From: Octopus vulgaris
Lineage: Eukaryota
Assembly: GCA_951406725.2 (NCBI GenBank)
Contig: OX597816.1
Coordinates: 174,220,001 to 174,284,000 of the forward strand
Length of the DNA: 64,000 nucleotides
Direction of reading: 5' to 3'
Shown here piece by piece: positions 4,249-64,000 of this stretch. Both the position numbers and the translations under genes were made by a program. Below the pieces are notes generated by a model that made no database searches, was not told where the DNA came from, and saw nothing but the letters and a program-made list of their open reading frames with translations. Within the stretch, counting starts at the first letter, position 1. Each line of letters starts with the position of its first letter.

Positions 4249-4660
4249 CTCTCTTTTACTCTTTTACTTGTTTCAGTCATTTGACTGCAGCCATGCTGGA
4301 GCACTGCCTTTAGTCGAGACAAATCAACCCCAGGACTTATTCTTTGTAAGCCCAGTACTTATTCGATTGCTCTCTTTTGCCAAACCGCTAAGTGATGGGG
4401 ACATAAACACACCAGCATCGGTTGTCAAGCAATGCTAGGGGGACAAACACAGACACACAAACACACACATATACATATATATATATATACATATATACGA
4501 CAGGCTTCTTTCAGTTTCCGTCTACCAAATCCACTCGCAAGGCATTGGTCGGCCTGGGGCTATAGCAGAAGACACTTGCCCAAGATGCCACGCAGTGGGA
4601 CTGAACCCGGAACCATGTGGCTGGTTAGCAAGCTACTTACCACACAGCCACTCCTGCGCC
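4249..4660 (-). mobile_element. tRNA-derived SINE family A, full length
   Basis: Minus strand starts GGCGCAGGAGTGGCTGTGTGGTAAG (A box), then GGTTCAGTCCC (B box), an internal (TA/TG)n tract and a 3' GAAACAAGTAAAAGAGT tail; about ten copies in the window. Confidence 0.9.
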
Positions 4661-4661
4661 T

Positions 4662-6440
4662 TTAATTTAATTTTTTTTTTTAAATATTTGAAAATATTAT
4701 TTACTTACCTCATTTATAAATTAATTCAGTTCTTCAATCTTTCTGGACAAATATATTTATCACATTTTCATAGAAATCTCTCCTTTTTCAGCAATTGTTG
4801 TAATAAATCTTTTTCAATTGACATTAGTGCTAACCCAGACAGTCTTCTTTCTCCTGTCACATTCCTTTGGTACATTTTGATTCTAGTCAATGCAGAAAAG
4901 GATCACTCTACAAAAGCAGTGGTAGACGGAATTGTCAAAATCAACTTGCACAGATTGAAGAGTTCTGGCCTAGCTTCAACAAGATCTCTGCTGTTAATGT
5001 AACTCAGTAAATGACTTACACTTTGCTTTTTAAAATCTTTTATTGAATACATCACATTGAGCTCACTTTGTAATCAAATTACATCAAAAAATCTGCCATA
5101 AGTGGTTTTTAAAGAATCTAAAGAATCCACAAGAAATTGTTTGCAATACTCATCAACTTTGTTGAAATTCAAAAGTTCCATGATTTTAAACTATTCTAAG
5201 GACGAATATTGTGTTTTTATTTGGTCAGCTATTGTACCAATAATTTTGTTATAAAGCATTCTATAATGTCATTGGGAATCAATAGATAGATTCCTGGATC
5301 TCTGAATTCCGATTGCTGCATCGATTACATATTTTCCCCTAACATATAAAATATTGAAAAATTGTCAAGTTTGCTTTCGAACTCAGTTCAAGTTTTATCT
5401 GTTTGCTCTTTATAATACACTATGTCATGACTTTTACTCTGGAGGATGTTAAATAAGACATCAATGAAAGAAAATATGTCAATGAATACTTCTAATAAAA
5501 GTAAGAAATCAGGAGCATTTAAAGTGTGTAAGAATTCAATTGCTGAATTTATGGTGGTACCATCCTGTGCTTCAGGATTTTAAATGATGTCTTCAAAAAG
5601 ACTGATTATGAAATTATACTTTTCTTTTGTGGTAATAATAAGACACGAGGAGTAGTTCCATCCAGTTGCTGCTGCTTTTGGAATTCTTTTTTTAACAATG
5701 TTATCTAATGCTTTAGCACTTTTTGGTGAGTTTGTAAAAAATGTACCCAGTCCATTTATTGTAGAAAAATATCTTGCATTCTTTTATAGCAGAGCATGAT
5801 TGTGAAAGAACTAAATTTAGGATATGGGCACAACAATGAATAAAGATTACACATTCACATTTCTTTACTTTTGACTGTAACCCATTTAATTGTCCTGCTA
5901 TTGTAGCAGCACCATTATAGGTTTGTGCAATAAGTTTGTTTTTACATTTCCACATTTCAATGCATTTAAAAACATGTTCAGATAAAGCATTTGCAAATCA
6001 ATCTGCACTAACATCATTAAAACCGATAAATCGTTCTTTCACAACACAATCTTTCATAACATAACGTAAGACAGTTGACAGTTGTGAATATGCCAATACA
6101 TCAGATGTTTCATCAACAAGAATGGCAACAAATTTAGCCTGATTAAGTTGATTTTGTATTTCATTCAACATAACCTTTTGAATTGCATCAATCAAGTCAT
6201 TTTGAATTCTGTTTGAGAGACTGGAGAAGATCGAACTGTATCTAGAGGGCTTGCCAATTTTTTGTCATATTTACTGATTAAATATAAGAGTTCTTTATAA
6301 TTTCCATGATTATTAGATTCTTCAGATTCAAAATGACCCCAAAATGATAATTCCTGACAAACTAAAAAAAGACTACATTGATCAACCATTGCAGAATGGA
6401 TCTGGTTTGTCTCACTTCCTCATTATGATGTTGTATGCTC
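4662..6440 (-). mobile_element. hAT transposase pseudogene (ZMYM1/DUF4371-type), copy 1
   Basis: Fragments GHFESEESNNHGNYKELL, ILVDETSDV, KERFIGF, AQTYNGAA and FIHCCAHILNLVL, plus a C-terminal hATC region; many stops and frameshifts. Confidence 0.9.
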
Positions 6441-28049: not shown

Positions 28050-31000
28050 TGTGGGAAGATGTCAGCGGCTGGAGAGCTGACTGGAAGAGAAAGGGCGCAC
28101 AGGTGACATGCGTACAGGCGGGGGAAGATTGCGCCCTTATTTGATTGGGGAAGCCGTGAGTGCAGGACATGTCTGCTTTGTTGAGGTGAGGGAAAGCAGC
28201 TGCTATTTTTAGCGTTTTGGGATGGGCCACATGGAAGAATTTGCGTCAACAAAGAGAAGGTAGGTGTCTTACATGTAATCTCCCGCATTCACTACAAGCT
28301 ATTTCAGGGCTCCACATAAGACGTCACCACAATGACAGCTAAAATTAGGATCGCCAGTGACGTTATCAGGCCCTTTAATGGTGAGGGCGATGTAGTGGCC
28401 TAGATGCATAAAATCAGGCTTGTGGCGAGATTCCAAGGCATTAGCGACAAGGCAAGCCTTATGGCACTATATTTGAAAAGGAGCACATTGACTAGAGTAC
28501 ATCTCTAGATGGACGAAGAAGGACTGAGTGAGGAGAAGATTGAGCAACGTCTGAGAGAGGCTTACACTGAGTGTGAATATACAGCCTTTGTTAAGCTGGG
28601 AATGATTAGATGGACGGGAGAGCAGGAAGATGAATACAGGTCAGAGGTGCATAGGCTGGCCACAGTGGCTGGATTTACAGGAGAAGGCCTGGACAGAGCA
28701 GCACAACTGGCATTCGTGAGTGGGTTCCCTGACGATGTAAGGATTCAATTGCAGCAATTGCCTGGGGTCAAAAAGATAGCACTGAGCGAACTTGTAGCTC
28801 AAGCTTGTGTGTTGACGTGAAACACTGGATGGAAGGAGATAGTGATGGTGGTAACGGAAGCACATAATGATGGACGATGGCCAGAGAAAGATGTGAAGAA
28901 GCCTACCGTGCAATGACAGTGGCTGTTCTGAGGCCGGTGTTTTAAATGTCAGGGCCGCACATGGTGAGGTAGTGTACACAACCAGGGCCCATCTGCTATC
29001 AATGCAGGCAGTCAGGGCACATCGCCCGTGATTGTGACCAGAGAAATGATTATGGGGAAGTTGCTGCCTCTTGAACTTTCCCCCACAAACGAGTAGAGGT
29101 GCTTGTGGAGACACTGCTCGTAATTGATGTCAAAGCCGAGGGTAAGATGTTCAAGGCCCTTGTGGATACGGGTTGCACAACCACCCTCATGGTGCGACAC
29201 TAAGGCTGCAGGTAATCATGATCAAACATGTGATAGATGGGGTTGATGTGGTGGTATCAGGATTGCAGGAGATGAGGTCATGTTTGGAAGTGTGGGGGCG
29301 TTGTGCACTGTGAGTCAGGATCACCAGAGAGAGCAGAGTTCCATGAGGGACTGCACCACTTAAACCATTGAGGACAAGGATTTTCAGGTGGCGTTCGATG
29401 GTTGGTGGTGAACGATAGAGTGGTGATGGAAAGACAAGCCCCCGATGCTGAAGAACAGGGTGAGCTGCTACCAGCATACCCTGAAAAGTCACACCAGGGT
29501 TGAGTTCAAAGATGAGGTAGAGAGATGGATCAAGGAAGAAATCCTTATCCTATGGAAGGAGGAGGTGGTGCAGAAAATGAAGGGAAAAGTCAGACCGGTG
29601 CTGGACTTTAGAGAACTGAACGACCATATATTGTGCCACACAGGAGGTAAGGTGACGGACGTTTGCAGTGAGACATTACATGTGTGGAGACAGTCGATCA
29701 AAGCAGCAATGATTGTTGACTTGAAGTTGGCATATTTAACAAACTGTGACGATATTAGCTGGTGCAGTACAAGGGCCAGACATACTGCTTAACCAGGCTG
29801 GGTTTCGGACTGAATTCCACTCCAAAGATCATGGCGATGGTGCTCAAGTTCATCCTAGGGAAAGAGGACAAGATAAGAAAGGCCACCAGTTCCTACACAA
29901 ATGACATTTTGGTGGATGAGACTGTAGTGCCAGCCACTGAGGTAGTGAGACATCTGGAGAAGTTCGGACTGATTGCGAAGCCACAGGAGTTGATGGCGGG
30001 GGGAGCTGTGCTGGGACTGAAGCTACGAAGAGATAGATCGGGTGAGTTGGTGTTCCAGAGAGAAAATGAAATCCCAAAGCTGAGTTCCAGCATCAGCAGG
30101 AGAGAGCTGTTCTTGGTGTGTGGGTAGCTGGTTGGTCACTACCCAATTGCTGGATGGCTGTGCACAGCATGCAGTTACACCAAGAGACGAGCAGAGGGGG
30201 AAGAGTTGGGGTGACAAGGTGGGAGGGGATGGTGGTGATGATGTGGGAAATCCTAGAGAGGATGGGAAATGGAAATGCCCAAGATGGAATGCTGGACCAT
30301 TTGGTGTGATGCTAGCAGTATAATGATAGGGGTTGTGCTGGAGATCGAAGGCGCTGAGGTGGAGGACGTGGCCTGGCTTTGGAAAGCAGATGACTTTAAC
30401 TACATCAATGTCGCCAAATTTGATGCAGTGCTGAAGGGGCTGAATGGCCCAGAAATGGGGGTGGTGCTCAATTGAAATCAGGATGAATTCAGCCACTATG
30501 CTTGGCTGGGTAGGATCAGTGATCACCAGTGAGAGGAGAGTTCAGACGAAAGGTTCCGCGGAGATGTTGGTGAAGCACCACTTATGAATTCTAGGAGAGC
30601 TGATTGCTGAGTTTGGACTGAAGCTGTACATGGTTACCATGCCTTCAGAGAGAAACAGAGCAGACACACTGACCAGGGTGAAGAAGGCATGGTTGGAGGA
30701 GCCGGAGGAGGCAAAGAAAGGGATAGCTGTGGCGTGTCGGTTGAGTGACTCCGAACTGAAGAGACTACATGCTATGCATCACTTCGGGTTGGATAGGACC
30801 TTGTATCTCACGAAGATGATTGATGCTGACGTCGTTAGTAGAAGCATCCAGAAAGTGGTCGGGAGCTGTGACAGGTGCCAGTCCATTGACCCTGCTTTGT
30901 GTAGGCATGAGCAAGGAAACCTTTCAGTAGAGCACAACTGGAAAAGGTTAGCTGTGGATGTGATGCACTGCTGTCAGGGAATGTATCTCTCCATGGTCGA

Positions 31001-31972
31001 CTGCAGGCTGGATAGCCATTTGGAGGGAGTTGAGGACGTGCATTGCTGATGAGATTGCACAGATTTTGAATGGGATATTTTTAGAGAGGGGGCCCATGGA
31101 AGAACTGCTAATGGACAACGGGGTGGTGTTTCATTTGGAAGTGTTGAGAGATATGCTTGACCGGTGGAAAGTGCGTCACTTATTCAAAGCAGCGTATAGG
31201 CCGAGTGGTAACGGAATCGTAGAGAGGCACCATCGGACAATCAAGGCCATGGTGGAAAGAGGATACATTTTGCCACTGGAAGCCGTTTTCTGGTATAACA
31301 TGTCTCTCTGATCTGGACAAACTGAAGAATCTGTGCCACACAGAGCAGTATTTAAATACGAATGGAGACATCCCAGTAAAGCACCGGAGTGACACGAGGA
31401 AGAGAAGGAACCTGCTTGCATGAAAATAGGGGAGGAAGTTAGGGTTAAGCCAACAAAGGCATGCTGTACGTCTCATTAAAACAAAGGAACAGTGACGGCG
31501 GTCAATTCCAGAAACAACATCTCCGTGGATGGAATGCCACATCATGTTTTGGACCTCCACAGGATTGTCGTTTCATTGGATGATGATTGTGGAGAGGAGG
31601 AGAACGAAGTGCCAAGCTTGAGGAGATCTCGACACATAAGGCGCCCACTCGTTTGGATGGTGGATTCGACGTAGAGTAGGAGGGGGGTGATCTTTAAGAT
31701 CAGGGTGGCATGTGGAATGATGTCAGCAGCTGGGGAGCTAACCAGAAGAGGAAGGGCACGCAGGTGACGCATGCACAGGTGAGGGAAGATTGCACCATTT
31801 TTCAATTAGGGGAGCCACGAGTGCAGGACGTGTCATTGCTTCATCGAGGTGAGGGAAAGCAGCTGCTATTTTTAGCGTTTTGGGACAGGCCACATGGAAG
31901 GATACGTTACCACCCAACAGGTTTGTGTCAACAAAGAGAAGGTAGGTGTCTTACATTCCCACATTCACTACA
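28050..31972 (+). mobile_element. Gypsy/Ty3 LTR retrotransposon 1, full length (3923 bp), decayed
   Basis: LTRs 28050-28296 and 31711-31972 (TG..CA) with 5-bp TSD ATTGG; gag, protease ALVDTGC, RT RLGFGL, RNase H WCDAS and integrase HHCC plus LLMDNG/NGIVERHHRTIK in Gypsy order; purine tract before the 3' LTR. Confidence 0.96.
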
Positions 31973-33231: not shown

Positions 33232-33459
33232 ATGTGGCCTGTTCCAAAATGCTAAAAATAGCAGCTGCTTTCCCTCACCTCGATGAAGCACTGACACGTC
33301 CTGCACTCATGGCTCCCCCAATTGAAAAATGGTGCAATCTTCCCTCACCTGTGCATGCGTCACCTGCGTGCTCTTCCTCTTCTGGTTAGCTCCCCAGCTG
33401 CTGACATCATTCCACATGCCACCCTGATCTTAAAGATCACCCCCCCTCCTACTCTACGT
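33232..33459 (-). repeat. Inverted ~228-bp copy of the Gypsy-1 PPT/3' LTR junction
   Basis: Reverse complement of 31669-31895 with 6 substitutions and 1 indel. Confidence 0.95.
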
Positions 33460-56148: not shown

Positions 56149-56645
56149 TTATGAAGGGAAAATTTTGTAATCAGGATTCCATTCTGTTAGGATGCCAATG
56201 TAGGAGGAAATCATTCCCAGAAGGCCCAATACTCCAGGGGAAAGGTTAACATGATGTAACATGGCCATAGGTAAAGGTAAGTCTGTGGTATTACGTATTA
56301 GATCAAACAATAATGGCTTGTTTTTCAGCAAACTAAAAACATACAGCTGTAACTGAGAGCAATTCTTCATAGCAGTGTTGTTAGTTATACACCCCAGTTG
56401 GTAAAAGTCTCTTCCAATGCTGCATAAAATACTTGCCAGCCAGAACTGGGCAGATAATTCAGAAATCTTAGAACGATTGACCTTTAACATACCAACACGG
56501 TCCAACCAAATTAAATTATCAAACAGCAGATACAAGGCATTATTGATCTTCGCTAAAGAGATCAAGGTCCTCAAGACTATATCATCAACATGTAAAGTCT
56601 TTAATGTACTGTTCAGCAGTTCAAAACTTTTCCCAAAACGAAACA
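56149..56645 (-). CDS. PEX11: Peroxisomal membrane protein PEX11 (A/B-like), terminal coding exon
   Basis: FRFGKS..LRTLISLAKINNALYLLFDNLIWL..FWLASILCSIGRDFY..LLFDLIRNTTDL..PGVLGLLGMISS matches the PEX11 family; preceded by a polypyrimidine tract and TTTTCAG acceptor (phase 1); upstream exons not found in the window. Confidence 0.9.
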
Positions 56646-57010
56646 CTGAAAAGAAAATAAATAGATAAATAAATAAATTGATGTAATTTCAAAACGAAAT
56701 TTCCGTTGTATTTTTTAAAATTAAAACATCAATTAAACTGAATTAAATTTTGAAAAGAATTTAAAACACTTCAATATGATTTAAAAACACTTAAAACATA
56801 TGATTCATTAGAAATAAGTAAAAGTTTCAAGAGGTAATTCACACAGAAAAATCTAAAAATGAACAAAATACCAGTTCATATTAACAGCTCACTTATGCTG
56901 TGCTGTGTCCCTTGCAAAATACATTTTGTTGGTTCATCAGTGGTTCCCAGACTTTTTCTGACTGCTATCCCCTTGACACTCAGGCTACATTCTCGGTGCC
57001 CACACTCCAT

Positions 57011-57717: not shown

Positions 57718-59213
57718 CAGTGGCGTGCGGTGACTTCCGGCGTTGGGCATGCAATTAATTTCATTCCCCCCCCCCCCCCGCCCCCGGGCAATTTTTCAGT
57801 GAAACATTTTCGTATTCCTACGATTTACATATAAGAGATTCTGAATATGCAGAATAAACAGGGAATAAAAAATGGCTGTGCGGAGATGATCCTGAAATAA
57901 GTGTATTGTTTGTATTATTCTTTGCTCTTCGAAACGTCAGTACTTTCCCATCCTCATTCTCCCTTAGAAAAGTCTAAAAATCATAAGTGAAATGTAATAA
58001 AGATGAAATTGGATTCTGTCAATATTTTTGCATATTCAGAATCTCTGTTAAAGGTAGGAATCCGAAAAAAAATTTTCACATAAATTCGTTTTTCAAAGGG
58101 GTGCGATTCTGCATTAGCCCCTATACCTGAATGAAATGATTTTTTTTGAGCTGAATGAAATGATTTAATTAAAAGAACACATTTAGTTACATTATATGCC
58201 CATGGTTTTAGATCGTTACGCTCTCAAAGACAAGTCAGGTTCTTTATCATGCTACTTGTCAATTCCGGGAAAATTATTGACTGTTCTGAGACTTACTGAA
58301 CTCCGTACATTAAAGGACTACGTCTCACGCACAAACATTGAAAATACACGCATATACATGAATACGCACACAATGAAAGACAGCGAAAATTCAACATTGT
58401 AAAAAGCCTCCCAAAACTGTTGTGGCAGAAGTCAACATCTCTGAGATTGAAACAAGACACTTATTGAAAGTGAAACAAAACACTTATTTACGGCCGTAAA
58501 TAGACTACACCCAGCAGCACAGAAAGGGAAATCTATGTAGGTAGGTTTCACGAAGAAATCAAAACATTTCTCCTGCGAAACAATACTGATGTAAGAAGGT
58601 CGAACCTTACGTTATAACAAACACTAAGCAAAACCTGTAATATATGCTCTTTAATATATATTTTTTTTAATGTTTTAAAATGTTACTTAGCTCATTTATA
58701 AATTAATTCAATTCTTCGATCTTTCTGGGCAAATATATCTATCACATTTTCATAGAAATCTTCTCTTTTCATCAATTCTTGTAATAAATCTTTTTCAATT
58801 GACATTAGTGCTAACCCAGACAGTCTTCTTTCTCCTGTCGCATTTCTTTGGTATGTTTTAATTCTACTTAATGCAGAAAAGGATCGCTCTACAGAAGCAG
58901 TGGTAGACGGAATTGTCAAAATCAACTTGCACAGATTGAAGAGTTCTGGCATAGCTTCAACAAGATCAGTGCTGTTAATGTAACTCATTAAATGACTTAC
59001 ACTTGGTTTTTTAAAATCTTTCATTGAATACATCACATTGAGCTCACTTTGTAATCGTATTACATCAAAAAATCTGCCATAAGTTGTTCTTAAAGAATCT
59101 AAAGAGTCCACAGGAAATTGTTTGCAATACTCATCAACTTTGTTGAAATTCAAAAGTTCCATGAATTTAAACTCTTCTAAGGATGAATATCGTGCTTTTA
59201 TTTGGTCAACTAT
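57718..59213 (-). mobile_element. hAT transposon copy 2: 3' end with terminal repeat
   Basis: Intact hATC dimerisation frame 58692-59162 (LILTIPSTTASVERSFSALSRIKTYQRN..RLSGLALMSIE); ends in hAT-like CAGTGGCGTGCGG at 57718; same family as 4662-6440. Confidence 0.88.
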
Positions 59214-59513
59214 TCATCATCATCATCATCATCGTTTAATGTCCGCTTTCCATGCTAGCATGGGTTGGACAAATGACTGAGGGCTGGCGAACCAGATGGC
59301 TGCACCAGGCTCCAGTCTGATCTGGCAGTGTTTCTACAGCTGGATGCCCTTCCTAACGCCAACCACTCCGAGAGTGTAGTGGGTGCTTTTACGTGCCACC
59401 GGCATGAAGGCCAGTCAGGCGGTACTGGCAACGACCTCGCTCGAATCTTTTACACATGTCACCGGCACAGGTGCCAGTAGGGCGATGCTGGTAACAAACA
59501 CGCTCGAATGGTG
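59214..59513 (-). mobile_element. SINE-like family C
   Basis: (CAT)n followed by the reverse complement of the family C 3' end and internal units. Confidence 0.85.
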
Positions 59514-60281
59514 TCAAGGCTAATTGACCAAATATTGTTGTCAAAGACTACTAAGAAAGAAAGTGCCTCCTAACTGAAGTATCAGTTCCAATCTACCAGA
59601 TAATCTATTTCTAAAAGAAGTTATCCAAATACAAAGATCTGGAAATAGAGAAATATAATCTTTATAATAATAAGAGCCTTGAGAATTATTGAAAAGTATG
59701 AAAAGAAAGACAGACCCAACACTGCAGAGCTTACAAATATACCCAACATATGATGTCATTTGTTTTCAAACTTCCACAAAAGTATAATGACCTTCTTGAC
59801 ACACTTTGACATACTGCATGACTTTTGTAAATGAAAGTCTGATTCAAACAGTGAAGTTCATTTCTAGCTCTCTGCATAACATGTGTCCATGTTGTTTGTT
59901 GTTTGCTAGACTGGGAAATTATTACCTCACTTGGAAACAAGTGGTGTCTTGCAACAAGGACTTACAGCCATAGAAAACTCTGCCTTAATGTATATTCATC
60001 TGACCCATGCAAACATGGAAAAAGTAGATGTTAAAACAATGTTGATGATAGGAGATGACAGTCCAGGGCACTGCACTTATATCATTACATAGATTACTTT
60101 CAATACAGTAGAAAATACAACAGTGAAACAAAATACTGAACTCACCACCCAGGTCACACATGAGTACACCTGGGTGTACAGTGAAGGCAAGCAATAAAAA
60201 TAAGACTTCTCAATAGTAATTTTTGCTTTTTAACAGTCTAATTTATTGTGTATATATGAAATAATAATTCTTTCTACCATA

Positions 60282-60672
60282 GTTGCAGGAGTGGCTGTGT
60301 GGTAAGTAGCTTGTTTACCAACCACATGGTTCCAGGTTCAGTCCCACTGCGTGGCACCTTCGGCAAGTGTCTTCTATAGCCTCGGGCTGACCAAAGCCTT
60401 GTGAGTGGATTTGGTAGACGGAAACTGAGAGAAGCCCGTCGTATATATGTATATATATATATGCGTGTGTGTGTTTGTCCCCCTAGCATTGCTTGACAAC
60501 CGATGCTGGTGTGTTTATGTCCCCGTTACTTAGCAGTTCGGCAAAAGAGACTGATAGAATAAGTACTGGGCTTACAAAAGAATAAGTCACGGGGTTGAGT
60601 TGCACGATTAAAGGCGGTGCTCCAGCATGGCCGCAGTCAAATGACTGAAACAATTAAAAGAGTAAATGAGTA
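60282..60672 (+). mobile_element. SINE family A
   Basis: High similarity to other copies. Confidence 0.9.
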
Positions 60673-60984
60673 TAGGCACAAGGGCTGTCATTTCGGGGAA
60701 GGAGATGAGTTAATTACTTTTGAAAAATCTAAGAGAACCACATGATAATGTAAAAGTAAAGGTAAAGACCCCTTTGATCACTAATGACCATGGCATTGCA
60801 CCTAGAACGTTCCCCTCCAAACCAGCCCCACCTCCTTCCACATCAGGAAAGAAGGTAAAGGCCAATATAGCTTCGCACCAGCGATATTGCAACTCATTCC
60901 TACAGCTGTGTGAACCGGATCAATATGAAATAAGATAAAGTACTCAATAATACATGGTAGACACTAAACATTTGAATGGACACG

Positions 60985-61240
60985 CCTGTCTATCTCTCTA
61001 TCTATCAATCAAATCTTTCTGTTTTTTTCATCCATCTGTCTGTCTGTCTAATCCATCTTCATATACTATCTATCCATCCCTCATTTACCTATCTGTCTGT
61101 CTGTCTAATCTATCTTTCTATCTGTCTGACCTATCTTTTTGTTCTATCCTTCTATTTGTCTGTCCGTCTAATCCAACTTTCTAATCCATCTTCATATACT
61201 ATCTGTCCATCCCTCATTTACCTATCTGTCTGTCTGTCTG
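60985..61240. repeat. Degenerate (TCTA/TCTG)n tract with an internal ~60-bp duplication
   Basis: TCTAATCCATCTTCATATACTATCT.TCCATCCCTCATTTACCTATCTGTCTG occurs twice. Confidence 0.85.
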
Positions 61241-61689
61241 ATGATATAGAAAATTCAGGTAAGCATTGAATAAATAAATGAACTGTAGGCAACAGCAGCT
61301 TCAATTAATAAATACCCTATTTTTGATGTTGAATTGATTGTTCTAGATGGATCAATAACAAAGAAGTTGTTAGAAAGTTGAAGCTCCATTCAGTGTGTCC
61401 AATGCCATTGACTGAAAACTCTGATTTAACATAAAATATTTAGAGCATAAATAATCTGGGAAGGAAAATAAGTAGCAAGATACGACATGACACAAATATA
61501 GGATAAACTGTCAGTGTGGTTATGTATATTATCATAAGAAAAGGTTGAGAATCAATATGTCATACACTGGTGCACACAATAAAGTCAGCCAGCTGCAACA
61601 TGTACTCAGGTTAAGAAAGAGAAATAATACACTTAGCTACAATACAACGATATAGCTGAAGGCAATAGGATAGGACCAAAAACAAAACT

Positions 61690-63245
61690 TTGCTTCTTCT
61701 CACCCCAAGAGCCAACTGATCCACTTGGCCAAATTGGAGATTGGTTTGGCAAGCAAACACAAACCAAGTAAAATCAACAACAACATAAGGCAGTGGTGGG
61801 GGACTTTCAATCTTACCTTAGGGCAGAGTACTAACAAAGTGATTTCATGGTTTAAATGCAACCAGAGAAGAGGTTGGACAAGGTTCACCTAAACTCAATT
61901 TAATCGCTTTTTACCCATCTATTTTCAAAGGGCTACTGGTCAAGGCACTTGCTTTCATTGATGTAATTGGCATTGATGTAATTATGCATGCCAGGAAAAT
62001 ATTGCTGTATAATAAATGTTTGACCTGGGTCAAACAAACTGACCCAGTAGGCTCCTCTCATTTGGTGATGGGAGCTGGAGATAGCACGGATATCTGCAAT
62101 TTTATAGGACTGTATATACAAGAACACCTAAAAGAAGAGGTTCCCATCAGTCATCTCTGACCTGTACAGAGATAACACAATGGCTATCTCTAGAGGAACT
62201 AACAGGTATACCTTTGACAGGCTTAGGAAAGACCTAATTAGCACCCTTAGTTCCATAGGGCTCAAGATAACAATCAATACCCACCTCATCACTGTAAACT
62301 TTTTAGATTATGTTAGACCTAGACAGGTCCTACTACAAACCAAACAAGAGATTGTCCTATATCAACACAGTCTCTTGCCACCTGCCTAACATGTTCAGGA
62401 ACCTAGTGAAGGGAGTCAGTAGAAAGATCTTGAACCTATCCACAAATCAGGATATTTTTGATGTCACAGCTTCCAATTACAGTGAGGCTCTGGCATCCAG
62501 TGAGTTTAAGGACTGCATCTCCTATATGCCGAGCCCTGGCACACATGGAAGGAAACACCACTGTCATTTGGTTCACCCTGCCCTTTTCTCCCAACATTAA
62601 GATTTGCATGGGAAGAATTTTTCTTAGATTGGTGGACAAACACTTCACACTTCAGATGTTTGTTTAATAGACATAACTTTTAGTTGTGCACCCAAATTTT
62701 AGAGAGCAAAGGACCACGTTTCGGACTTCTCCCATCTTGTGAGCTCTGGGACGAAGACCGTTTGCTCAACAGCAGAAACGACACCAACATTGCAGCCAGA
62801 AATGGTGACAACGCCAGCAACAATGAAACCACCAGGATCATGTCCAGGAACAACAGTATTGGCAACAACAACAGTGACACCAGACCTGGAGTTAATGAAA
62901 GAAACATTAGTAGTGGTATCACATTCAGTGCACAGACACAGAAATATATTAGTTCAACCAGGGGCCGTTTTAAGCAACATCTGAACTACTGCAGATTCTC
63001 GTTTAAGATACTGGAATGGTACAACATCACATCTATGATCAGCCACATATTGTACTTAAAAGAGAAAGAAACCCATACATAATTAAATGAAAGCTCCTTT
63101 AGCAACTGGGGACTTATATAAATAGGAGCAAACAATGTAAGTGTTGCTTGGCAGAGATAACCAGGATCCTAAAATACTTACTTGATCCAGGGACCCTTTT
63201 AAACTCCAGGAAAGAGGTATTTAGCTCTCATGTAAGGTAATACAC
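61690..63245 (+). mobile_element. Penelope-like element (RT plus GIY-YIG), decayed
   Basis: AFYPSIFKGLLVKALAF, LYRDN (YRDD-like), GLKITINTHLITVNFLD, YKPNKRLSYIN, WFTLPFSPNIK..GRIFLRLVDKHF and KYISSTRGRFKQ motifs. Confidence 0.85.
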
Positions 63246-63304
63246 ATGACCCAACAAACCATCCTCAGAGCCGATACATTCATACATACATACATATATT
63301 CATT

Positions 63305-63515
63305 TATTCTTTTACTTGTTTCAGTCATTTGACTGGCATACCACCTTAAACGATTTTAACCTAAGAAATCGACCCCCACCAGGACTTATTCTTTGTAAGC
63401 CCAGTACTTATTGTATTAGCCACCCTTGATGAACCACTAAGTTATGTGGATGTAAACACACCAACATAGGTTGTCAAGCAATGGTGGGGTGACAAACACG
63501 GGCACAAAGACACAT
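63305..63515 (-). mobile_element. SINE family A, 3' half
   Basis: TTTTACTTGTTTCAGTCATTTGACTG..GGTTGTCAAGCAATG. Confidence 0.8.
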
Positions 63516-63820
63516 ACATATATATATATATGAAAGAAAGTTTGAAACTGCAATTTTAAACATGTTTATTCGCTTGACCGGTTTCACTTTTTTTAGTAAA
63601 AGATTGTCAAAAGTAAAATGTAAAAGCTTTGTATGAGCTTTGTTGTGTTAAGTACAGATTATCACAAAAGTATTAAAATAAAGTTATACAGTCTTTGATA
63701 ATAATAAAAAAAATTTAAAAACAGTTTACAAGAAAGTATTTAAGACAGTAAGCAGAATGGAACTCCAAAAAGTATTTTGAGTTCAATAAAAATCATGTTT
63801 GTTTGGTAGTATATATAGAC

Positions 63821-63972
63821 ACAGAAGGAGATGTATTCAAGAATTTACAAAAAACTGCAGAGGAATAACTGACCTGTCTTTCTGACATTTTCTGACAAGA
63901 GAAAATGTCAGAAAGACAGGTCAGCCACTCCTCTGCAGTCCCTTGTAAATTCTTAAATATATCTCCCTCCGT
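63821..63972. repeat. Fold-back hairpin, 73-bp arms and 6-nt loop, between (TA)n tracts
   Basis: 63821-63893 versus the reverse complement of 63900-63972: 10 mismatches, all transitions, no indels. Confidence 0.95.
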
Positions 63973-64000
63973 ATATATATATATATATATATATATATAT

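What the first reader, a model, noticed from the sequence alone, without database searches (positions are those of the whole stretch)
63821..63972. Hairpin with a fixed A-to-G hyper-editing-like signature
Seen: the 73-bp arms differ at 10 sites, all transitions. Eight are A in the left arm versus G in the reverse-complemented right arm, clustered as AAA/GGG and ATAA/GTGG. In a minus-strand RNA, 9 of the 10 become G:U pairs, and none of those 9 putative edited As has a 5' G. Known: ADAR edits clustered As in long dsRNA, disfavours a 5' G and is very active in coleoid cephalopods. Inference: an edited RNA was reverse-transcribed back into the genome, plausibly by PLE machinery, since the neighbouring hammerhead-bearing tail is also minus-strand. 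Alternatives are G>A deaminase hypermutation of the left arm or arms copied from two subfamilies.
Basis: partly seen in the sequence, partly recalled or inferred. Interest (0 to 1): 0.75.

Follow-up and report, generated by a model that had tools for sequence, protein, structure and literature searches.

The report
RNA edits frozen in a retrocopy
A DNA hairpin carries nine one-strand A-to-G changes that its related repeats lack and its source locus lacks wherever the two align, most likely because an RNA-editing enzyme altered a long transcript that a jumping gene's enzyme then copied into a new chromosome, which would make temporary RNA edits heritable.

Summary
The hairpin and its 10 mismatches are as described. 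Family copies have A at all eight sites, so the G's are derived; the right arm is the only outlier among 77 family segments and the most skewed of 107 short-spacer hairpins in 1.12 Mb. The hairpin lies in a 5.4-kb block copied from contig C18 into a young hAT transposon inside the PEX11 intron. The block ends exactly at a LINE's (ATG)n 3' tail, with no target loss, which points to a minus-strand RNA, the strand on which the changes read A-to-G. The C18 donor is unedited at six clearly alignable sites and probably at the other three. Best reading: ADAR edited the transcript and a LINE reverse transcriptase, not the Penelope machinery, wrote it back (0.72). The hammerhead core is dead in 41 of 41 motif matches. 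Read-level confirmation at this locus is missing, so an assembly artefact remains possible (0.10). The scan noted similar cases earlier on other DNA, including this genome (not tested here); a human cell-culture precedent is published as a preprint.

The parts
63821..63893 (-). Left arm; 3' arm of the predicted minus-strand RNA hairpin; sense part of a Penelope-like element. One derived T>C (A>G on minus) at 63838; 63855 and 63858 are possible further ones; G at 63833 is shared with the donor and is not an edit.
63894..63899 (.). 6-nt loop / fold-back junction
63900..63972 (-). Right arm; 5' arm of the RNA hairpin; inverted 5'-side copy of the element with eight derived T>C (A>G on minus) at 63925, 63926, 63928, 63940, 63941, 63942, 63967, 63970 (8 of 28 As)
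63973..64000 (.). Internal (TA)n of the inverted copy; the arm resumes for 12 bp beyond it, outside the window
   Evidence: L001
63530..63820 (-). Unpaired 3' part of the Penelope-like element (at least 2403 candidates in the genome) with degenerate minimal-hammerhead remnant near 63575-63600, AATAAA and (TA)n end; no T>C change here
   Evidence: one copy (L022) joins a frame resembling HTH_animal proteins
59214..64000 (-). 5.4-kb copied block (continues to position 64587 counted on from the window), 99% identical to G000:C18:6207661-6213150; contains a LINE tail, SINE-like repeats, a decayed reverse-transcriptase-like remnant and the hairpin
59214..59518 (-). 3' end of a LINE/SINE family with (ATG)n tail; forms the exact end of the block; tail about two units longer than in the donor
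58692..59213 (-). C-terminal half of a young hAT transposase split by the block (N-terminal 552 aa frame lies beyond the window); siblings give the intact empty site
56149..56688 (-). Last coding exon of PEX11; the first matching exon lies about 7 kb beyond the window end, so the hAT and the block sit in its intron, hairpin in sense orientation

Best explanation
The hairpin is an old Penelope-like fold-back that was copied from contig C18 into a hAT transposon on C3 within a 5.4-kb block, likely as a minus-strand transcript that ADAR had edited at nine adenosines and that a LINE reverse transcriptase then wrote into DNA. Shown: derived one-strand A>G changes confined to the stem, an unedited donor, an intact empty target site, and a block end at a LINE 3' tail pointing to the same strand. 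Inferred: the transcript itself, ADAR as the enzyme, LINE target-primed reverse transcription (a 5' transduction primed at the (ATG)n tail, 5'-truncated at a 3-nt microhomology), and passage through the germline.
For: Polarity: family has A at the eight sites in 60-66 of 63-68 segments; best other match to the right arm 88%. Outlier: 8 A>G against at most 3 in the 73 segments from other loci; most skewed of 107 short-spacer hairpins in 1.12 Mb. Donor: only two copies of the block found; older relatives run through the right boundary like C18, not like the window; donor has T at 63838, 63925, 63926, 63928, 63967, 63970 and a T run matching 63940-42. Confinement: outside the hairpin 43 differences in 5119 bases, only 4 T>C. 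RNA route: block splits an open hAT frame with no base lost and 0-2 bp duplicated; ends at an (ATG)n tail that follows LINE reverse-transcriptase frames in 3 loci; rough chance of a breakpoint at such an end 0.001. Both arms changed in the same direction on the same strand. ADAR-domain genes are present. Precedent: 3 of 235 L1-made pseudogene insertions with clustered T>C in inverted Alus (PMC11702581, passages); 5' G disfavoured across metazoans (PMC9989829, passages).
Against: No read-level confirmation of this locus (inconclusive). Only nine sites; 5' G avoidance p 0.085; changes lopsided (8 of 28 As vs 1 of 22, p 0.06); none in the inner 25 bp of the stem, in the (TA)n run, or clustered in the block's long-range inverted SINE pair (78% complementary). 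The assembled donor is not a clean pre-image: it differs by 0.84% while the host hAT is 99.2-99.8% identical to most siblings, so the true source was probably another allele, and the donor hairpin has lost its tip and is rearranged. 8 of 9 changes follow A or T (p 0.04), which also fits an error-prone DNA polymerase. No RNA spanning the block was seen.
Confidence: 0.72

Rival explanations
1. Assembly or base-calling artefact: long-read errors in the second arm of a hairpin beside a (TA)n run survived polishing.
For: Nanopore reads lose accuracy after inverted-duplicate junctions (PMC7229812, passages); eight of nine changes are in one arm next to a microsatellite; contigs of four runs did not settle the locus. 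The sequencing platform is not known to me.
Against: Long near-perfect hairpins in the same assembly are clean (L194, 250-bp arms, 1 mismatch; L002, 171 bp, 3 transversions). Errors would be expected on both arms in mirror form (inference), but the left-arm change 63838 has the same plus-strand polarity as the right-arm ones. No indels in the arms. The direction matches the RNA strand inferred independently from the LINE tail.
Confidence: 0.1
2. DNA-level clustered mutation: an error-prone polymerase (Pol eta-like, A>G after A/T; recalled) or the reverse transcriptase itself misread the hairpin during insertion or repair.
For: 8 of 9 changes follow A or T; they fall in three tight clusters, mostly in one arm; the donor hairpin shows signs of break repair.
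Against: All nine are one substitution type with no indel or transversion; 29% of As in one arm is far above polymerase error rates as I recall them; 12 other fold-backs of the family and 106 other hairpins lack the pattern.
Confidence: 0.09
3. Editing written back in place: after insertion the hairpin is transcribed in PEX11 pre-mRNA, edited, and used as a repair template at C3 (or the same happened earlier at a C18 allele).
For: The block lies in the PEX11 intron in the sense that makes the changes A>G; the source allele is not in the assembly.
Against: Needs a second, rarer event; a retrocopy step that explains the changes is already documented by the junctions.
Confidence: 0.06
4. One reading: the Penelope-like element's own reverse transcriptase copied an edited element RNA.
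For: The hairpin is a Penelope-type inverted 5' copy (PMC8557442, passages) and the element's sense strand is the minus strand.
Against: The same element insertion in the donor is unedited; the copied unit extends 4.3 kb past the element's 3' end to a LINE tail and 0.5 kb past its 5' side; hammerhead core dead in 41 of 41.
Confidence: 0.03

Closest known systems
ADAR-edited pseudogene insertions made by human L1 in cultured cells (PMC11702581, preprint; passages read)
   Same: LINE-made copy of a non-LINE transcript with clustered T>C restricted to an inverted repeat; 5' microhomology junctions.
   Different: There somatic, induced, 3 of 235 insertions, inverted Alus, L1 with 12-18 bp duplications; here in a genome assembly of an invertebrate-type animal, a Penelope-like fold-back, an (ATG)n-tailed LINE family and 0-2 bp duplication.
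[quoted passage not shown]
   Same: ADAR-type changes in an inverted repeat preserved by reverse transcription.
   Different: Viral RNA, nearly 50% of As; here a host genomic transcript, 18% of stem As (9 of 50).
APOBEC DNA-edited LTR retrotransposons (PMC4866542, passages read)
   Same: Clustered strand-specific changes relative to an unedited ancestral copy, fixed in genomes.
   Different: G>A on cDNA, vertebrates, absent from 19 invertebrate genomes in that screen; here A>G and confined to a dsRNA stem.
5' transduction by non-autonomous retroelements such as SVA (PMC12593883, PMC3287187; search listing only; mechanism recalled)
   Same: Upstream sequence carried along in a transcript that ends at the element's 3' tail.
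   Different: Different LINE partner; carries editing marks; promoter not identified here.
Penelope-like elements with inverted 5'-truncated copies and minimal hammerheads (PMC8557442, PMC4209133; passages read)
   Same: Sense copy with adjacent inverted copy, (TA)n association, short palindromic helix III remnant.
   Different: Catalytic core lost; the element here is cargo, not the vehicle.

Membership tests
ADAR-hyper-edited RNA fixed by reverse transcription | Changes are derived A>G on one strand relative to an unedited source | tested here: met
   (six sites unambiguous in donor, three probable)
ADAR-hyper-edited RNA fixed by reverse transcription | Changes confined to double-stranded region | tested here: met
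   9 of 50 stem As; 4 T>C in 1440 Ts elsewhere in the block
ADAR-hyper-edited RNA fixed by reverse transcription | 5' G depletion, 3' G enrichment | tested here: inconclusive
   5' G 0 of 11 vs 9 of 39, p 0.085; 3' G 2 of 12, no enrichment
ADAR-hyper-edited RNA fixed by reverse transcription | Both arms edited on the same strand | tested here: inconclusive
   8 of 28 and 1 of 22 (3 of 24 if 63855 and 63858 count)
ADAR-hyper-edited RNA fixed by reverse transcription | Changes present in raw genomic reads and inherited | tested here: inconclusive
   contigs only, swamped by the repeat family
ADAR-hyper-edited RNA fixed by reverse transcription | Same stem edited in RNA | not testable with these tools
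   no run on record as RNA and none kept as raw reads
LINE-mediated retrocopy (5' transduction) | Copy ends at a retroelement 3' tail, tail lengthened | tested here: met
LINE-mediated retrocopy (5' transduction) | Donor and intact empty target identified; 5' truncation with microhomology | tested here: met
LINE-mediated retrocopy (5' transduction) | Target-site duplication | tested here: inconclusive
   0-2 bp only; no consistent duplication found for 28 other copies of this tail family either
RTE clade LINE | Reverse-transcriptase phylogeny places the partner LINE in RTE | not tested
   RVT_1 match for a related frame; RTE label is recalled from the C-terminal motif and tail
Penelope-like element | Inverted 5'-truncated copy next to sense copy | tested here: met
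   12 other loci with a reversed second arm segment
Penelope-like element | Telomerase-like RT plus GIY-YIG endonuclease | tested here: inconclusive
   133-aa frame in L022: no Pfam hit; Atlas neighbours HTH_animal at 0.98 with low recognition; no full ORF retrieved
Minimal hammerhead ribozyme | CUGANGA core upstream of GAAA | tested here: not met
   0 of 41 motif matches; no Rfam hit
APOBEC-type DNA editing | Derived G>A on the sense strand | tested here: not met
   ancestral base is A

The most novel reading that the evidence does not exclude
Ordinary genomic transcripts in this animal's germline are ADAR-edited and then retrocopied by an active LINE into new sites, so RNA editing is an ongoing, still-polymorphic source of heritable clustered mutations in host sequence; this locus gives donor, empty target, strand and a very recent date for one such event, now sitting in a PEX11 intron.
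Probability: 0.55. Interest if true: 0.75.

Novelty: new variant of a known kind. Interest (0 to 1): 0.6.

Why it matters
A-to-I edits are treated as non-heritable. A retrocopy with an identified unedited donor, an intact empty target and a young age would be a direct record of edited RNA entering the inherited genome, and shows that ADAR and an active LINE meet in germline cells. It makes the question testable by PCR across individuals. It also warns that such copies could mimic or mask editing calls in RNA-seq, and that A>G clusters in genomes need not be polymerase or APOBEC scars. The single case is small (nine sites in non-coding repeat DNA) and probably has no function.

Tried and rejected
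Contigs of 4 of 24 listed runs laid on 63400-63972: about 39,000 records, dominated by other family copies; bins 63900-63939 had depth in two runs and none in two, with no other letters listed, but the pieces could not be tied to this locus, so inconclusive. No RNA holder listed; not evidence on expression. Rfam at gathering threshold: 0 hits. G>A editing of the left arm and two-subfamily origin: rejected. A>G bias intrinsic to fold-back synthesis: rejected (12 other fold-backs). Idea that the block is itself a hAT element: rejected, it interrupts one. Idea that the donor's extra 80 bases are garbled sequence: rejected, they match an abundant repeat at 94-99%. Editing of the long-range inverted SINE pair: not seen. 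The automatic alignment across the hairpin was wrong because of the donor's rearrangement; those columns (63838-63971) were dropped from the background count and read by local anchors instead. Paper searches for a published germline case listed none by title or abstract start; subscription journals and bioRxiv supplements (including Fig. S8 of PMC11702581) were not seen.

Full report
Observation. The hairpin is real: arms 63821-63893 and 63900-63972 with a 6-nt loop and 10 mismatches, all transitions, eight of them A in the left arm against G in the reverse-complemented right arm. Read as minus-strand RNA, nine mismatches become G:U pairs and the stem is almost unbroken (-118.3 kcal/mol, z -21.0; plus strand -94.3). 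The window is G000:C3:174220001-174284000 of a 2.8-Gb animal genome; I did not test the species.

Direction of the changes. The arm belongs to a dispersed family (192 candidates for the arm, 2403 for its neighbouring tail; 40 scored per search). In 67 non-redundant loci, picked as best matches and so not a random sample, the eight sites are A in 60-66 of 63-68 segments and G in at most 4; site 63838 is T in 66 of 68. No other copy matches the right arm above 88%. So the right arm has eight derived T>C on the plus strand and the left arm one, all A>G on the minus strand. Of 77 arm segments (2 window, 2 donor, 73 others) only the window's right arm stands out: 8 A>G against at most 3 elsewhere, background 2.1% per A, P about 9e-8. 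Twelve other loci are fold-backs too and show nothing similar. In 1.12 Mb of fetched DNA (600 kb of it evenly spaced samples), 387 inverted pairs had balanced transition classes overall (2349 vs 2372), and this hairpin was the most skewed of 107 with short spacers.

What the hairpin is. It is a sense copy of a repeat's 3' end on the minus strand (63530-63893) joined to an inverted copy that runs through the (TA)n and 12 bp further. That layout is typical of Penelope-like elements (PMC8557442, passages). The tail keeps the GAAAC-CGGTC half of a minimal hammerhead of the type in PMC4209133 (passages), but the CTGANGA core is intact in 0 of 41 motif matches (two or so of these matches are not family tails). 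One copy joins a 133-aa frame with HTH_animal-like neighbours (no Pfam hit). Penelope membership is likely but not fully shown.

The donor. A second copy of the whole neighbourhood lies on C18. The shared block spans window 59214/59219 to 64587 and C18:6207661-6213150; three searches with different parts found no third copy. C18 is the source: older relatives continue through the right boundary as C18 does, and on C3 the block splits an open hAT transposase frame. Eleven sibling hATs give the empty site: no base lost, 0-2 bp duplicated, 3-nt microhomology with the donor at the right end. The left end is exactly the (CAT)n end of an abundant repeat, two units longer than in the donor; the same tail follows LINE reverse-transcriptase frames in 3 of the loci hit by tblastn. 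With 36 such ends in 600 kb, a breakpoint there by chance is about 0.001. This is the anatomy of a LINE-primed copy of a minus-strand RNA (inference from established target-primed reverse transcription). An active RTE LINE has been described in octopus (PMC9115989, passages); whether this family is RTE, or this genome octopus, I did not test.

The donor is unedited. It has T at 63838, 63925, 63926, 63928, 63967 and 63970, and a T run where the window has CCC at 63940-42, although that part is rearranged. It shares the G at 63833, so the one discordant mismatch is an older mutation. Outside the hairpin the two copies differ at 43 of 5119 bases, with 4 T>C and 6 A>G: no strand excess. The changes are therefore confined to the stem: 9 of 50 As.

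Caveats. The donor is 0.84% away while the host hAT's long half is 99.2-99.8% identical to 8 of 11 siblings, so the copy is young and its source was probably a different C18 allele; the assembled donor has lost 38 bases at the hairpin tip, has a scrambled stretch in the right arm and an 80-base repeat insertion. ADAR context is only suggestive: 0 of 11 As with 5' G changed against 9 of 39 (p 0.085), no 3' G enrichment; the metazoan preference is from PMC9989829 (passages). Changes are lopsided between arms (p 0.06) and absent from the inner 25 bp, the (TA)n and the distant inverted SINE pair. Contigs of four public runs could not confirm the locus, so an artefact is not excluded, though 250-bp and 171-bp near-perfect hairpins in the same assembly are clean.

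Host context. The insertion lies in the intron of PEX11, on the minus strand, so the hairpin is predicted to be transcribed again in the editable sense. This allows an in-place write-back rival but also an easy RNA test. Adenosine-deaminase-domain genes occur at four loci.

Comparison. It works like the ADAR-marked pseudogene insertions made by human L1 in cultured cells (3 of 235; PMC11702581, passages) and like A-to-G hypermutated avian retroviruses (review PMC12925331, passage). It is not APOBEC DNA editing (PMC4866542, passages). Four searches listed no paper on an inherited ADAR-edited retrocopy in an invertebrate, within the limits of the library. Earlier notes of this scan report similar cases on other DNA, 40 fitting the look-up in this genome; none covers this sequence and I tested none, but one gave the lead to PMC11702581.

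Verdict. Real in the assembly, far beyond chance, most likely ADAR edits frozen by LINE-mediated retrocopying (0.72), with the Penelope-like element as cargo. New variant of a known kind; interest 0.6, raised by the rare full set of donor, empty site and strand, lowered by nine sites, no read confirmation and a cell-culture precedent.

Noticed in passing
window 58692-59213 and L120:1571-3226 (minus): A very young hAT family: 14 copies 100% identical over 264 bases and at least 158 candidates, with open transposase frames; probably recently or still active.
   Followed up: partly
L042:1897-1976 (C18 donor) and G000:C1 arrays such as 121000913-121004731: An 80-base insert in the donor's (TA)n belongs to a very homogeneous repeat that forms about 535-bp tandem arrays and inverted pairs across C1 (98% identity, 724 candidates); nature not determined, possibly a young retrozyme- or Penelope-derived unit.
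   Followed up: no
L042:1790-1890: The donor hairpin has lost its tip between two AGAG repeats and carries a short scrambled mini-hairpin at the mirror position, as expected from repair of a cut palindrome; the nine changes weaken the window copy's DNA fold from about -80 to -55/-60 kcal/mol, which may have protected it.
   Followed up: partly
60 evenly spaced 10-kb samples L159-L218: Fold-back hairpins are very common in this genome: 56 short-spacer inverted repeats of 40 bp or more in 600 kb.
   Followed up: partly
window 28050-28232 / 33232-33416: Inverted repeat pair 5 kb apart with skewed mismatches (19 vs 6 transitions, 14 of them G/A), the most skewed long-range pair; flanks LTR-retroelement-like frames at 29427-31311. 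Observed only.
   Followed up: no
window 61240-63260: Decayed reverse-transcriptase/endonuclease-like remnant on the plus strand inside the copied block, resembling a Penelope ORF by recalled motifs; no Pfam hit for the fragments tested.
   Followed up: partly
L125:596-1759 (minus) and L124:2490-5089 (minus); L122:5037-5534 (plus): Near the donor: a 388-aa frame and a decayed LINE lie upstream on the minus strand and are candidate sources of the read-through transcript; an LPMO_10 gene lies on the other side.
   Followed up: no
window 4439-5002: A second, older fragment similar to the hAT transposase C-terminus.
   Followed up: no
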